Shown here piece by piece: positions 17,837 to 20,684 of a stretch of DNA of 64,000 bases. The notes below the pieces were generated by a model. That model worked only from the letters and a program-made list of their open reading frames with translations, ran no database searches and was not told the DNA's origin. The translations under genes were made by a program, and so were the position numbers. Source of the stretch: Escherichia phage vB_EcoM_D4. Location of the stretch: sequence record PP886228, one strand, 5' to 3'. Position 1 is the first letter of the stretch; each line of letters starts with the position of its first letter.

Positions 17837-18136
17837 TTAATCTGCCAACCTTAAATTAAAATTAACACCAAATTTTTCACATACTTCCAACATAAACTTA
17901 AGAGAAACATTACCAGTGAGATTGATTATGTTGGATACACGAGACTGAGAGATACCACAAATTTTAGCAACTTGCTCTTGAGAAAGGCCTCTGGATTTAA
18001 TCTCTCTCTTAAAACGATGTGCAACGAAGTCTCTCATTTCGTCTACATCCATTGGACAAATATAACTCTCCATTTCAGCCTCTCTGTCAGCCTCCCAATC
18101 ATCTTGTGGAGCATAAGGGTCAAAAACCTCATTCAT
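17837..18136 (-). CDS. helix-turn-helix DNA-binding protein
   Basis: QEQVAKICGISQSRVSNI resembles XRE-type HTH; start set to internal ATG 18136 with RBS. Confidence 0.4.
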   Translation of the reverse strand: MNEVFDPYAPQDDWEADREAEMESYICPMDVDEMRDFVAHRFKREIKSRGLSQEQVAKICGISQSRVSNIINLTGNVSLKFMLEVCEKFGVNFNLRLAD

Positions 18137-18342: not shown

Positions 18343-18726
18343 TCAAATACCTGTGCAGCTTCTGTTTTCTAAGAAATACTCAACACCATACATAGCTTTT
18401 TGCATCAAATCTTCTTTAAACTGAATACGATGATTAAGCATAGCCTGTACATCAATATCATCATGGTGCTTCTCTTTAATATTTGCAGATTGCAGGAAAT
18501 ACTCTGCAAGAACACGATACTGATAGTCAGTTACCTTGTCAGTCATCTCTGTTAAAGATTCTTCAGAGATTGGTTTAAGTAACTCACCATTAGCCAAAGC
18601 AACACCTTTAACAATCTGGCAAGTATCTTCTGGAACACCTGATAAGTCCACATTTGGAAGTTCTGTTGCATTGACTGGTAAATTCATTGCCATAACCATT
18701 GCAGCAGCTAATAAAATCTTTTTCAT
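18343..18726 (-). CDS. secreted/periplasmic protein
   Basis: N-terminal signal peptide MKKILLAAAMVMAMNLPVNA. Confidence 0.45.
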   Translation of the reverse strand: MKKILLAAAMVMAMNLPVNATELPNVDLSGVPEDTCQIVKGVALANGELLKPISEESLTEMTDKVTDYQYRVLAEYFLQSANIKEKHHDDIDVQAMLNHRIQFKEDLMQKAMYGVEYFLENRSCTGI

Positions 18727-18787
18727 AATGACCTCAAAGTTATATTAAATTTTGTATTACATTGAGTATAAAAATAAGCTATAACAC

Positions 18788-19380
18788 CTGACTTGTCAAC
18801 AGATTTTATAGCTTATTTGGCAGATTTTTTATAAGGCTACTGCCATCCTTCCATACCTTACCACACCAAACCACACCATACCGAGCCACACCCTACCAGA
18901 CCCTACCAAACCCGACCGAGCATCACTTAAAAATCCTCTTAGAAGACTCTTAAGTGATGTAATCGAATTTTAATGTAGCTCCGATTAACTACCCATACCT
19001 CACCTTACTTAACCGTACCGCACAGAACCACACCAAACCTAACACCACTTCTCATCACCTTATTAAAAACCCTGTTTAAAGACCTTTTAAAAAGATGAGT
19101 CTCATTTTAATGTAGATGAGACTAACTACCCGCACCGAACCTCACCTGACCTGACAGCACCCGACCTCACCGCGCCATACCATACCATACTTCACTTAAA
19201 AATCCTCTTAGAAGGCTCTTAAGTGATGTAATCGAATTTTTATGTAGCTCCGATTAACTACCCGCACTTTACCAAACCTCACCCTACCCTACCAGACCTT
19301 ACCTAACCGCGCCGTACCTCATTAAAAGACCCTCTTAAAGACCTTTTAAAAAGGAGCCTCCGAAGAGGCTACCTAGTCAA
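18788..19380. repeat. four tandem-like copies of a composite module: period-5 CC tract plus conserved hairpins
   Basis: CC at exact 5-bp spacing 18851-18917 (14 units), 19262-19318, 19130-19186 and a degenerate copy 18992-19059; conserved palindromes catcacttaa...ttaagtgatg and taatcg...cgatta. Confidence 0.7.
19345..19372 (-). terminator. rho-independent terminator (minus strand)
   Basis: Minus-strand reading agcctc ttcg gaggct followed by TTTTT, directly after stop of ORF 19382-19822. Confidence 0.5.
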
Positions 19381-19381
19381 C

Positions 19382-19822
19382 TTAGAAAGGTTTTCTACGT
19401 TGCTTATTAATGTTAGCTTTCATAGCAGCTAAATGGTTTTGCTGTTCAATCAGTCGTGAGCGTTCTTGATGGCTAAGTGCCATAGTGTTCACATTCTCAA
19501 TCGCTTGAGTGGCTTGCTTTAAAGCTCGACCAATCTTGCCAGACATTTTACGTTTTGCAATAGTTGCTTGATGCTTAGGTTCAACCACACGATAACCAAC
19601 ACCCATTGAAGCAACCAGATAAATCTTCTCTTCTTTAAGAAGCTTCTCAATAAACTTCTCAAGTCGGTTTAGACGTGTAAGCGCATAAGCCTTCATTTCA
19701 TCTTCGTACTTAACAATGTCACCTTGATAAGTTGGCTTCACAATACCTAAGAATGTGTCCATCTCAGAATGTGATACAGTGTCACCGTAACTAAACTTTG
19801 CTGCTAATGCTTTTGTATTCAT
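19382..19822 (-). CDS. hypothetical protein
   Basis: 146-aa ORF flanked on both sides by repeat modules. Confidence 0.4.
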   Translation of the reverse strand: MNTKALAAKFSYGDTVSHSEMDTFLGIVKPTYQGDIVKYEDEMKAYALTRLNRLEKFIEKLLKEEKIYLVASMGVGYRVVEPKHQATIAKRKMSGKIGRALKQATQAIENVNTMALSHQERSRLIEQQNHLAAMKANINKQRRKPF

Positions 19823-19824
19823 AA

Positions 19825-20430
<606 letters not shown>

Positions 20431-20489
20431 TTAGTTGATTGTTAAGTTGTTTGTAAAGAACCCTCAACAGAAGACTCTTTAGAAACTTG

Positions 20490-20620
20490 GTAGATTTTTA
20501 ACGTGGCTACTACCATCCACCCAGACTTTACCATACCTCACCAGACCATACCTCACCTGGCCGCGCCTTGCCTTGCCAAACATCACTTAAAAACCCTTTT
20601 AAAAGACTCTTAAGTGATGC
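20490..20620. repeat. fifth copy of the period-5 CC / hairpin module
   Basis: ggtagatttttaacgtggctactacc hairpin, CC every 5 bp 20531-20577, then catcacttaa...ttaagtgatg palindrome. Confidence 0.65.
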
Positions 20621-20684
20621 TGGTGAGTACCCGTTGGTTTATGCTGCTCAGTATACTCACCAAATTTTCTATGTCAACAACTTT

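What the first reader, a model, noticed from the sequence alone, without database searches (positions are those of the whole stretch)
18788..19380. Composite intergenic modules with CC dinucleotides at exact 5-bp periodicity plus covarying hairpins
Each module has a 55-70 bp tract where CC recurs every 5 bp (18851-18917 gives 14 consecutive units; also 19130-19186, 19262-19318, degenerate copy 18992-19059). On the minus strand, which is the coding strand here, this is (GGNNN)n, the minimal motif for two-tetrad G-quadruplexes, or a half-helical-turn binding array. The tract is bracketed by hairpins whose arms differ between copies but stay complementary (tggcag/ctgcca vs tggtag/ctacca; taatcg/cgatta vs agtctcat/atgagact around a conserved tttaatgtag loop). 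Compensatory change implies selection on structure. Nothing comparable appears elsewhere in the window.
Basis: seen in the sequence. Interest (0 to 1): 0.78.

Follow-up and report, generated by a model that had tools for sequence, protein, structure and literature searches.

The report
Phage VIPR guide-RNA array
The 5-base CC periodicity and covarying hairpins are the guide RNAs of a phage VIPR system, an RNA-guided DNA-silencing system first described in 2026 preprints, so the feature is real but already explained.

Summary
Read on the minus (transcribed) strand, 18818-19321 contains four tracts of 12-14 YNNGG units. Each tract ends in a covarying pseudoknot and is preceded by a hairpin.

Between the two sites lie two genes. 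One is 98% identical to the solved "SUSP1 Vipr protein" (PDB 36pp). The other is 99% identical to SUSP1 vap1.

The window is therefore a type II VIPR (Viral Interference Programmable Repeat) locus of a Felixounavirus, in the SUSP1 clade described in two 2026 bioRxiv preprints. In that model, Vipr protomers polymerise along the RNA, one per repeat. They hide each GGY and present the variable NN dinucleotides, which pair with double-stranded DNA while skipping every third target base. The result is transcriptional silencing.

I reproduced this rule independently. 23 of 39 vrRNAs from 11 related phages match E. coli satellite elements at 80% or better with a 1-nt skip, against 1, 0 and 1 for skips of 0, 2 and 3.

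Three of the window's five guides hit satellite recombinase genes or an upstream region. The G-quadruplex reading is not supported. Novelty: already known.

The parts
20650..20677 (-). Sigma-70-like promoter (TTGACA-16-TATACT) ahead of the upstream vrRNA and vipr
   Evidence: 11/12 consensus match. Sequence read. Function inferred.
20581..20619 (-). 5' spacer hairpin type A (CAUCACUUAAGAG...UUUAAGUGAUG), ending at the first repeat unit
   Evidence: 18-bp stem, -15.7 kcal/mol. The same element precedes D2 and D4. A role in 5' end definition or processing is inferred.
20521..20580 (-). vrRNA U1 guide tract: 12 YNNGG units (NN = TT AA AA GC CA GA AT CT GA AT AA CT)
   Evidence: Identical tract in phage H12. 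Corresponds to 'vrRNA1' upstream of vipr in SUSP1.
20488..20520 (-). U1 3' tail pseudoknot (GUGG/CCAC and UGGUAG/CUACCA)
   Evidence: Covariation on alignment A1.
19825..20412 (-). vipr gene (195 aa RAMP protein)
   Evidence: E=2.1e-128; 191/195 identical to PDB 36pp_D 'SUSP1 Vipr protein'. H17, K33, R39, E71, M72, K82, G87, K88, R138, C173, D177, W178 and R179 all present; position 175 is V in the window and in the 36pp chain, against the paper's 'T175'. phrog_4652; no Pfam hit.
19382..19822 (-). vap1 accessory gene (146 aa)
   Evidence: 145/146 identical to the gene following vipr in phiSUSP1. phrog_5926; no Pfam or PDB sequence match.
19322..19370 (-). Terminator-like hairpin AGCCUCUUCGGAGGCU plus spacer hairpin type B (...AAAAGGUCUUUAAGAGGGUCUUUUAA), ending at the first unit of D1
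19262..19321 (-). vrRNA D1 guide tract: 12 units (NN = GA AC GC TA AA CT AG AG GA TT AA GC)
   Evidence: Best natural match 21/24, upstream of the 'transposase'-annotated gene of the E. coli satellite (L137); null maximum 20 in 500 unit shuffles.
19229..19261 (-). D1 tail pseudoknot (GUAG/CUAC and UAAUCGGA/UUCGAUUA)
19190..19228 (-). Spacer hairpin type A
   Evidence: -14.7 kcal/mol.
19130..19189 (-). vrRNA D2 guide tract: 12 units (NN = AT AT AT GC GA CG GC CA CA GA TC GC)
   Evidence: 22/24 match, all of the first 11 units, in the large serine recombinase gene of the ymdF-wrbA satellite, with skip bases at codon wobble positions (L136). 18 E. coli genomes carry the 34/34 site.
19098..19129 (-). 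D2 tail pseudoknot (GUAG/CUAC and AGUCUCAU/AUGAGACU)
19063..19097 (-). Spacer type B (...UUUUUAAAAGGUCUUUAAACAGGGUUUUUAA)
   Evidence: Identical in phage HK3. No credible target: 16/20 in an IS3 transposase only; the extended guide scores 0.64.
18960..18992 (-). D3 tail pseudoknot (same type as D1)
18921..18959 (-). Spacer hairpin type A
   Evidence: -21.6 kcal/mol.
18851..18920 (-). vrRNA D4 guide tract: 14 exact units (NN = TC CG TT AG CT AG GT TC AT GT TT GT AA AT)
   Evidence: 23/28 match, antisense, in the large serine recombinase of the yecE (DUF72)-inserted satellite, with skip bases at wobble positions (L135, L137); 0/200 shuffles reach it. The site is present in 254 E. coli genomes.
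18818..18850 (-). D4 tail pseudoknot (AAGG/CCUU and UGGCAG/CUGCCA)
18771..18799 (-). Promoter-like site (TTGACA-17-TATTTT) for the next gene (18343-18726); marks the end of the VIPR locus
   Evidence: Annotated as a promoter in phage ASO1B.

Best explanation
The window carries a complete type II VIPR (Viral Interference Programmable Repeat) locus of a Felixounavirus, all on the minus strand. The order is promoter, vrRNA U1, vipr, vap1, then an array of four vrRNAs (D1-D4).

**Anatomy of each vrRNA.** It has 12-14 YNNGG repeats followed by a roughly 33-nt pseudoknot tail.

**Mechanism.** This is taken from the near-identical SUSP1 system and not tested here. One Vipr (RAMP-fold) protomer binds each repeat, forming a helical filament. 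G1, G2 and Y3 of each GGY are flipped into protein pockets, and the two variable bases are presented for pairing. Together the NN dinucleotides read a double-stranded DNA target in an NNx register, with one target base skipped per repeat. This forms a gapped R-loop that blocks transcription.

**Function (inferred).** The phage silences competing mobile elements. Here these are roughly 11-12 kb E. coli chromosomal satellite elements that carry tape-measure and baseplate genes. Guides D2 and D4 match their large serine recombinase genes, and D1 matches the region upstream of another satellite gene.

The CC periodicity is the complement of the GG in these repeats. The covarying hairpins are stem 2 of the tail pseudoknots, and the conserved 'tttaatgtag' is loop 3 plus the 3' arm of stem 1.
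For: 1. **Partner protein.** Gene 19825-20412 matches PDB 36pp 'SUSP1 Vipr protein' at E=2e-128 with 191/195 identities, and the RNA- and DNA-contacting residues named in the cryo-EM paper are retained. The next gene is 99% identical to SUSP1 vap1.
2. **Repeat statistics.** Across 47 vrRNAs from 11 Ounavirinae phages, Y is pyrimidine in 99.8% of units, G4 is G in 89% and G5 in 99%. The two N positions carry 1.9 bits each. There are 7-19 units per RNA, mode 12-14. This matches the published '9-16 YNNGG' definition.
4. **Independent association, found before the literature.** Degenerate (GGYNN)n arrays occur in at least 86 IMG/VR loci with GC 0.38-0.70, modal length 11-12 units. They are strand-consistent, and a homologue of the 195-aa protein lies on the same strand in 50 of them.
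5. **Targeting rule reproduced.** 23/39 unique vrRNAs reach at least 80% NN match in four satellite copies with a 1-nt skip, against 1, 0 and 1 with skips of 0, 2 and 3.
6. **Window guides.** D2 scores 22/24, D1 21/24 and D4 23/28, each above every unit-order shuffle. For the two coding targets, the skipped bases fall on codon third positions.
7. **No self-target** in the 64-kb window; the best match is 0.71.
8. **Literature.** 10.64898/2026.04.26.720920 and 10.64898/2026.04.26.720927.
Against: - Expression, processing and Vipr loading of these particular RNAs were not measured. All mechanism is transferred from SUSP1, whose guides carry different NN sequences.
- The supporting papers are preprints.
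- Two of five guides have no convincing target. U1 reaches 18/24 at best. D3 reaches 16/20, in an IS3 transposase, which is probably chance.
- Exact-pattern scans of IMG/VR (U1, D4) and of one genome per species (U1) found nothing.
- D4 and D1 match at 82-88%, not perfectly, and silencing at that level of mismatch is untested.
- D3 has 5 of 14 units with a non-G first base and may be decaying.
Confidence: 0.95

Rival explanations
1. The (GGNNN)n tracts fold into two-tetrad RNA or DNA G-quadruplexes that regulate transcription, RNA stability or replication.
For: The motif formally satisfies a two-tetrad G4 pattern with 3-nt loops, and resembles the thrombin aptamer GGTTGGTGTGGTTGG (sequence).
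Against: - No G4 appears in the MFE of any of the five RNAs with G4 energies enabled.
- A G4 does not require a pyrimidine after GG, yet 99.8% of units have one.
- It does not explain why the first G tolerates replacement in 11% of units.
- It does not explain the obligatory Vipr gene on the same strand in 50/86 unrelated loci, or NN strings that match foreign genes in an NNx register.
- Cryo-EM shows the GGY bases bound individually by protein.
Confidence: 0.02
2. The tracts are binding sites for a ring-shaped RNA-binding protein of the TRAP type (11-12 subunits, one triplet per 5 nt), controlling expression of flanking genes by attenuation. This was my own first hypothesis.
For: Period 5 with a conserved triplet and a 2-nt spacer is formally like the (G/U)AG-N2-3 sites of TRAP. 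Modal tract length is 11-12 units. U1 lies in the 5' leader of vipr.
Against: The associated protein is a RAMP that forms an open helical filament, not a ring. Tract lengths run from 7 to 38 units. The 'spacer' NN carry target information.
Confidence: 0.01
3. The feature acts at the DNA level. Options are an R-loop-prone G-rich non-template tract serving as a replication origin, a packaging or terminal-repeat array like the T7 short repeats, or strong antisense Rho-loading (rut) sites on the C-rich strand.
For: There is strong G/C strand asymmetry next to DNA-metabolism genes (ligase, DHFR, thymidylate synthase). 60-70 nt C-rich, G-poor tracts with regularly spaced CC resemble ideal rut sites.
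Against: - G-U pairs in the tail stems work only as minus-strand RNA.
- In SUSP1 the region yields discrete roughly 100-nt RNAs that co-purify with Vipr.
- Hypervariable NN with conserved GGY is not expected for an origin, a pac site or a rut site.
- The same arrays occur in phages of unrelated genome types, always with Vipr.
Confidence: 0.015
4. It is just an ordinary intergenic set of terminators and promoters plus a drifting tandem repeat. This is how several GenBank records annotate it.
For: Records label parts of it 'repeat_region', 'terminator' or 'promoter'. A terminator-like hairpin and two sigma-70-like promoters are present.
Against: A drifting tandem repeat would not hold GG and Y fixed while randomising NN. 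It would not keep pseudoknot pairing through compensatory changes, or match foreign genes in a gapped register.
Confidence: 0.005

Closest known systems
Type II VIPR system of Escherichia phage SUSP1 (Suspvirus), bioRxiv 10.64898/2026.04.26.720920 and 10.64898/2026.04.26.720927; PDB 36pp
   Same: - Vipr is 98% and vap1 99% identical.
- Gene order and strand are the same.
- One vrRNA lies upstream and an array downstream.
- The YNNGG repeats, tail pseudoknot types and spacer hairpins are the same.
- Guides aim at the same family of E. coli satellites.
   Different: - This phage has four downstream vrRNAs; the paper reports three for SUSP1.
- Among the vrRNAs detected in the SUSP1 locus (three of its four), all NN strings differ from those here.
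- D2 was not seen in the ten other phages sampled.
- Which satellite variants are hit therefore differs.
Class 1 CRISPR effector backbones (Cas7/Csm3/Cmr4 filaments on crRNA)
   Same: A RAMP/RRM fold with a G-loop and thumb. One protomer binds per fixed RNA step, the thumb breaks the guide-target duplex periodically, and a conserved 3' or 5' handle caps a variable guide.
   Different: - The step is 5 nt with only 2 read, against 6 nt with 5 read.
- The guide is non-contiguous and embedded in genome-encoded repeats.
- There are no Cas1/Cas2, no spacer acquisition, no PAM and no nuclease in type II.
- The system is phage-encoded and directed at other mobile elements.
TRAP (trp RNA-binding attenuation protein) and its (G/U)AG-N2-3 repeat sites
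   Same: A conserved triplet plus a 2-nt spacer, repeated about 11 times in single-stranded RNA, with one protein subunit per repeat.
   Different: The protein fold is unrelated and it forms a closed ring. The spacers carry no information. The function is attenuation of the RNA's own operon, not guidance to DNA.
Pseudomonas fulva prophage VIPR (same papers)
   Same: GGY/NN vrRNAs, a Vipr filament, an R-loop triplex, and targeting of rival prophages.
   Different: It uses GGC-type repeats in a high-GC genome, has no pseudoknot fiducial, and targets lysis-lysogeny regulators rather than satellite recombinases.

Membership tests
VIPR system (type II, SUSP1 clade) | A Vipr protein (minimal RAMP: RRM core, G-loop, thumb) encoded in the locus | tested here: met
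   195-aa product of 19825-20412(-) matches PDB 36pp_D 'SUSP1 Vipr protein' at E=2.1e-128 with 191/195 identities. The G-loop [14 protein letters not shown]17, R138, D177, W178 and R179 are present.
VIPR system (type II, SUSP1 clade) | vrRNAs made of 9-16 tandem YNNGG units with conserved GGY and hypervariable NN | tested here: met
   Five tracts of 12, 12, 12, 14 and 14 units. Across 591 units from 11 phages, Y is pyrimidine in 99.8%, GG is 89%/99%, and NN carries 1.9 bits per position.
VIPR system (type II, SUSP1 clade) | An invariable 3' tail after the repeat tract, folding into a pseudoknot | tested here: met
   Stem 1 is 100% paired with 3/4 pairs covarying. Stem 2 is 80% paired with 6/8 covarying. 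0/500 shuffles reach the observed values, and slid controls are 25-46% paired.
VIPR system (type II, SUSP1 clade) | Two-gene operon vipr-vap flanked by long non-coding regions that hold the vrRNAs, all on one strand | tested here: met
   The order is U1, vipr, vap1, D1-D4 on the minus strand. vap1 is 145/146 identical to the SUSP1 gene.
VIPR system (type II, SUSP1 clade) | NN dinucleotides specify DNA targets under the 1-nt skip rule; natural targets lie in competing mobile elements, not in the phage itself | tested here: met
   Skip-1 gives 23/39 vrRNAs at 80% or better in satellites, against 1/0/1 for skips 0/2/3. Window guides: D2 22/24, D1 21/24, D4 23/28. Best self-match in the window is 0.71 or lower. 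U1 and D3 have no target found.
VIPR system (type II, SUSP1 clade) | vrRNAs are expressed as roughly 100-nt RNAs and co-purify with Vipr | not testable with these tools
   Shown for SUSP1 by small-RNA sequencing and pull-down. Here only the lengths can be checked: tract plus tail is 93-103 nt.
VIPR system (type II, SUSP1 clade) | Target binding represses transcription | not testable with these tools
   Shown for SUSP1 with GFP reporters and lambda cro/cI.
RNA/DNA G-quadruplex element | Four or more G-runs that fold into stacked tetrads more stably than competing structures | tested here: not met
   ViennaRNA with gquad enabled gives identical MFE structures with and without G4 for all five RNAs. 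In vitro behaviour was not tested.
TRAP-type ring-protein binding site | (G/U)AG triplets, and a TRAP-fold 11/12-mer ring as partner | tested here: not met
   The triplet is GGY. The partner is a RAMP filament.
CRISPR array | Identical direct repeats of about 23-50 nt separating unique contiguous spacers, with cas1/cas2 nearby | tested here: not met
   The constant parts (tail plus spacer hairpin, about 70 nt) come in several covarying types, and the variable part is itself a 5-nt repeat. There is no Rfam hit. The neighbouring genes are ligase, vipr, vap1 and small unknowns.

The most novel reading that the evidence does not exclude
Some details seen here are not in the main text of the two preprints and could be new.

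1. The E. coli satellites carry a single orphan vrRNA whose tail is almost identical to the phage U1 tail, but no Vipr gene. They would have to borrow the helper phage's Vipr to fight rival satellites.
2. The last repeat unit (usually UAUGG) is mismatched in 59% of natural targets. It may therefore belong to the constant handle rather than the guide.
3. Every vrRNA is immediately preceded by one of two hairpin types ending GGGUYUUUUAA. These may define the 5' end by processing.
Probability: 0.4. Interest if true: 0.45.

Novelty: already known. Interest (0 to 1): 0.3.

Why it matters
VIPR is a recently reported way of guiding a protein to DNA with RNA. The guide is written in the two variable bases of a pentanucleotide repeat and read with a one-base skip. 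Its protein is proposed to be an ancestor of the CRISPR RAMPs.

This window adds no new principle. It does show three things:
- The system is recognisable from raw sequence alone.
- It is present, unannotated or mis-annotated, in all 230 Ounavirinae records that matched.
- Its guide sets differ from phage to phage while converging on the same E. coli satellite family.

For annotation pipelines, the practical lesson is to call (GGYNN)n tracts next to phrog_4652 genes as vrRNAs, not as 'repeat_region', terminators or tiny hypothetical proteins.

Tried and rejected
- **Rfam and ARAGORN on the whole window:** no hits.
- **Early hypotheses dropped once the partner protein was identified:** a TRAP-like ring site, Rho rut sites on the C-rich strand, an R-loop origin, T7-like terminal short repeats, ToxI-like antitoxin repeats and RecA/Chi-like GT-rich DNA.
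- **Literature search on Felixounavirus terminal repeats:** gave no link to this site.
- **Exact NNx pattern scans:** U1 and D4 in IMG/VR, and the central 10 units of U1 in one genome per species, all returned 0 hits.
- **BLAST with an idealised U1 target:** only the same 18/24 site was found in E. coli genomes, at 83%. U1 therefore remains without a target.
- **D3:** its only 80% match lies in an IS3 transposase and disappears when the four degenerate 5' units are included (0.64). It is treated as chance.
- **Search for a Vipr gene in six satellite-bearing loci:** tblastn at E<=1 found none. A profile HMM gave a best E of about 6, against 1.7e-87 for the window control. hhalign of the 184-aa first satellite gene gave probability 0.1%.
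- **Supplementary tables of the preprint:** not held, so I could not check whether this phage or its guides are among the 13 loci and 41 vrRNAs the authors list.

Full report
**What is in the sequence**

The window is a Felixounavirus. Region 18700-19400 is 100% identical to Escherichia phage vB_EcoM_I14.1, and 230 Ounavirinae records match it. Positions 18727-19381 lie between two minus-strand genes.

On the + strand, CC recurs every 5 bp in runs of 14, 5+6 and 10, plus a degenerate copy. A fifth run of 10 lies at 20531-20577. No comparable run of any dinucleotide exists elsewhere in the 64 kb.

The sliding-window score is 10/10. The maximum was 5/10 in shuffled windows and 7/10 in 500 shuffles of the C-rich region.

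**Anatomy on the transcribed strand**

Read on the minus strand, the order is:
1. A sigma-70-like promoter (20677-20650).
2. An 18-bp hairpin.
3. 12 YNNGG units (20580-20521).
4. A 33-nt tail.
5. A 195-aa gene (20412-19825).
6. A 146-aa gene (19822-19382).
7. A terminator-like hairpin.
8. Four modules, each made of a spacer hairpin, 12-14 YNNGG units and a 33-nt tail.
9. A second promoter for the next gene (18799-18771).

The tails come in four sequence types, and all fit one H-type pseudoknot. Stem 1 is GUAG/CUAC, GUGG/CCAC or AAGG/CCUU. Stem 2 is UAAUCGGA/UUCGAUUA, AGUCUCAU/AUGAGACU, UGGUAG/CUACCA or UGGCAG/CUGCCA.

On 15 distinct tails, 86.7% of cells pair and 9 of 12 pairs change on both sides. 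0/500 shuffles reach this, and sliding the partner by one to three columns drops pairing to 25-46%. The G-U pair in UAAUCGGA/UUCGAUUA exists only in the minus-strand RNA reading.

**Evidence gathered before consulting the literature**

Most are not simple repeats. They are degenerate (GGYNN)n arrays, GGC in high-GC phages and GGT in low-GC ones.

There are 265 complex tracts in 86 loci. The median length is 12 units, with the mode at 11-12. The third base is C or T in 87% of units, and tracts lie on a single strand in 85 of 86 loci.

Clustering the neighbouring ORFs showed that a homologue of the window's 195-aa protein lies on the G-rich strand in 50 of the 86 loci. It usually ends 0-80 nt, or one small gene, upstream of the array. 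This established a conserved protein-plus-array system across unrelated phages.

**Identification**

The 195-aa protein has no Pfam hit and belongs to phrog_4652, of unknown function. Against PDB sequences it matches 36pp_D, 'SUSP1 Vipr protein', at E=2.1e-128 with 191/195 identities.

Two bioRxiv preprints of April-June 2026 describe VIPR systems. According to them:
- A minimal RAMP protein (Vipr) works with vrRNAs of 9-16 YNNGG repeats followed by a constant tail, which is a pseudoknot in the SUSP1 clade.
- One protomer binds per repeat in a helical filament.
- GGY is flipped into protein pockets: H17 and D177 for G1, R138 and W178 for G2, and a pyrimidine-only pocket for Y.
- The NN dinucleotides pair with dsDNA while every third target base is skipped, giving a gapped R-loop and transcriptional repression.
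- SUSP1 has one vrRNA upstream of vipr and three downstream of vap1.
- 18 of 20 SUSP1-clade guides with identifiable targets aim at an E. coli satellite phage.

**Membership tests run here**

1. All cited contact residues are present in the window's protein. The one discrepancy with the paper's residue list is position 175, which is V in both the window and the 36pp chain.
2. The 146-aa gene is 145/146 identical to the SUSP1 gene after vipr, which is vap1.
3. In 47 vrRNAs (591 units) from the window and ten relatives, Y is pyrimidine in 99.8% of units. The two G positions are G in 89% and 99%. The N positions carry 1.92 and 1.88 bits. Units per RNA range from 7 to 19.
4. The pseudoknot is supported by covariation.
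5. Architecture and strand match the published locus.

**Targets**

A distant BLAST of the locus against 5,426 complete E. coli genomes found vrRNA-like sequences in unannotated DNA of 147 chromosomes.

These lie in islands of about 11-12 kb inserted in yecE (DUF72), between ymdF and wrbA, or, in one degraded copy, next to mdtG. The islands carry a large serine recombinase, tape-measure and baseplate genes, an HNH endonuclease and small unknown genes.

I scanned four such islands with all 39 unique guides under four skip rules. 23 guides reached at least 80% NN match with a 1-nt skip, against 1, 0 and 1 for skips of 0, 2 and 3. This independently reproduces the published code.

For the window's guides:

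| Guide | Best match | Where | Support |
|---|---|---|---|
| D2 | 22/24 (all of the first 11 units) | Large serine recombinase of the ymdF-wrbA island; skipped bases on codon third positions | 18 genomes carry the 34/34 site |
| D4 | 23/28 | Antisense strand of the yecE-island recombinase; skips again at wobble positions | 0/200 shuffles reach it; site present in 254 genomes |
| D1 | 21/24 | About 45-80 nt upstream of the 'transposase'-annotated satellite gene | Null maximum 20 in 500 shuffles; 103 genomes at 95% or better on the idealised site |
| U1 | 18/24 | Over the -35 box of the promoter of the main satellite operon | Below threshold |
| D3 | none credible | - | |

No guide matches the window itself above 0.71.

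**The G-quadruplex reading**

With G-quadruplex energies enabled, ViennaRNA returns the same minimum-free-energy structures as without them, and none contains a G4. The strict pyrimidine after GG and the tolerated loss of the first G also fit the Vipr pockets better than a G4. I give this reading about 2%.

**Extras**

- The satellites carry one vrRNA each, with a tail nearly identical to the phage U1 tail. They have no detectable Vipr gene by tblastn, profile HMM or hhalign.
- These satellite guides match other satellite variants at 0.82-0.86. They do not match their own island or the phage.
- Across 23 guide-target pairs, the mismatch rate is 59% in the last unit, 20% in the second-last and 20% in the first. 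It is 0-13% elsewhere. The terminal UAUGG probably belongs to the handle.
- Every guide tract starts directly after one of two hairpin types. This may be a processing signal.

**Verdict**

It is wrong on the G4 and on uniqueness within the window.

The feature is a member of an already described system, with near-identical proteins. It is therefore already known. What differs is the set of guides this phage carries and the satellite sites they match.

Noticed in passing
window 20488-20677 (minus strand): A fifth vrRNA (12 units plus a pseudoknot tail with UGGUAG/CUACCA) sits behind its own TTGACA-16-TATACT promoter, upstream of vipr.
   Followed up: yes
IMG/VR loci L003-L122 (e.g. L005 2781-3023, L018 1483-1945, L029 12157-12333, L058 3797-4274): Degenerate (GGYNN)n arrays are widespread in phage contigs with GC 0.38-0.70. 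High-GC phages use GGC and low-GC phages use GGT. There are up to 10 tracts per locus and up to 38 units per tract. A Vipr homologue is found by BLAST in 50 of 86 loci; the other 36 were not examined with a profile.
   Followed up: partly
L133 14992-15087; L134 11968-12069; L135 11999-12084; L136 7590-7654; L137 4903-4972 (E. coli chromosomes): Satellite islands carry a single vrRNA with a phage-like tail (GUGGAUUGUCGUAGCCACGUUAAAAAUCGAC) but no detectable Vipr gene. Their guides match other satellite variants at 0.82-0.86, and neither themselves nor the phage. They would need the helper phage's Vipr.
   Followed up: partly
23 guide-target pairs, phage loci L123-L132 and window vs L133-L138: Mismatches to natural targets are concentrated in the last repeat unit (59%), with 20% in the second-last and 20% in the first; internal units show 0-13%. 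The last unit is UAUGG in most vrRNAs, which suggests it is part of the constant handle.
   Followed up: partly
window 20581-20619, 19322-19349, 19190-19228, 19063-19097, 18921-18959: Each guide tract begins directly after one of two spacer hairpin types. Type A is CAUCACUUAAGAG..UUUAAGUGAUG with an 18-bp stem; type B is ..AAAAGGUCUUUAARAGGGUCUUUUAA. Both end in GGGUYUUUUAA. One apical pair covaries (C-G to U-A). A role as a processing or 5'-end signal is my inference; the main text of the preprints does not mention these hairpins.
   Followed up: partly
L137 8591-8626 vs window hairpin A: The D1 target in the satellite (..ACTTAGAAGAGACTTAAAAGC) resembles the phage's own spacer hairpin A sequence (CTCTTAGAAGACTCTTAAGTG on the + strand). 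The phage copies nevertheless score only 17/24 or less as D1 targets. This could be a shared regulatory palindrome or coincidence.
   Followed up: no
L125 502-606 (H12 CDS0072), L131 661-798 (ULIM8), L001 3427-3463, L002 3209-3253: Public records annotate parts of the vrRNA regions as small hypothetical proteins, 'repeat_region' or a TransTerm terminator. None annotates vipr, vap1 or the vrRNAs.
   Followed up: no
window 18993-19062: vrRNA D3 has 5 of 14 units with the first G replaced (TG or AG) and one unit with a purine at the Y position. It is conserved identically in phage HK3, and no target was found. It may be decaying or may tolerate degenerate G1.
   Followed up: partly
window 18343-18726 (minus strand): The gene just downstream of the array (127 aa, phrog_4332, no Pfam) starts MKKILLAAAMVMAMNLPVNA. 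This looks like a signal peptide, so it may be a secreted or periplasmic early protein.
   Followed up: no
window 17837-18136 (minus strand): A 99-aa HTH_3 (Cro/CI-type) transcriptional regulator lies two genes downstream of the VIPR locus.
   Followed up: no
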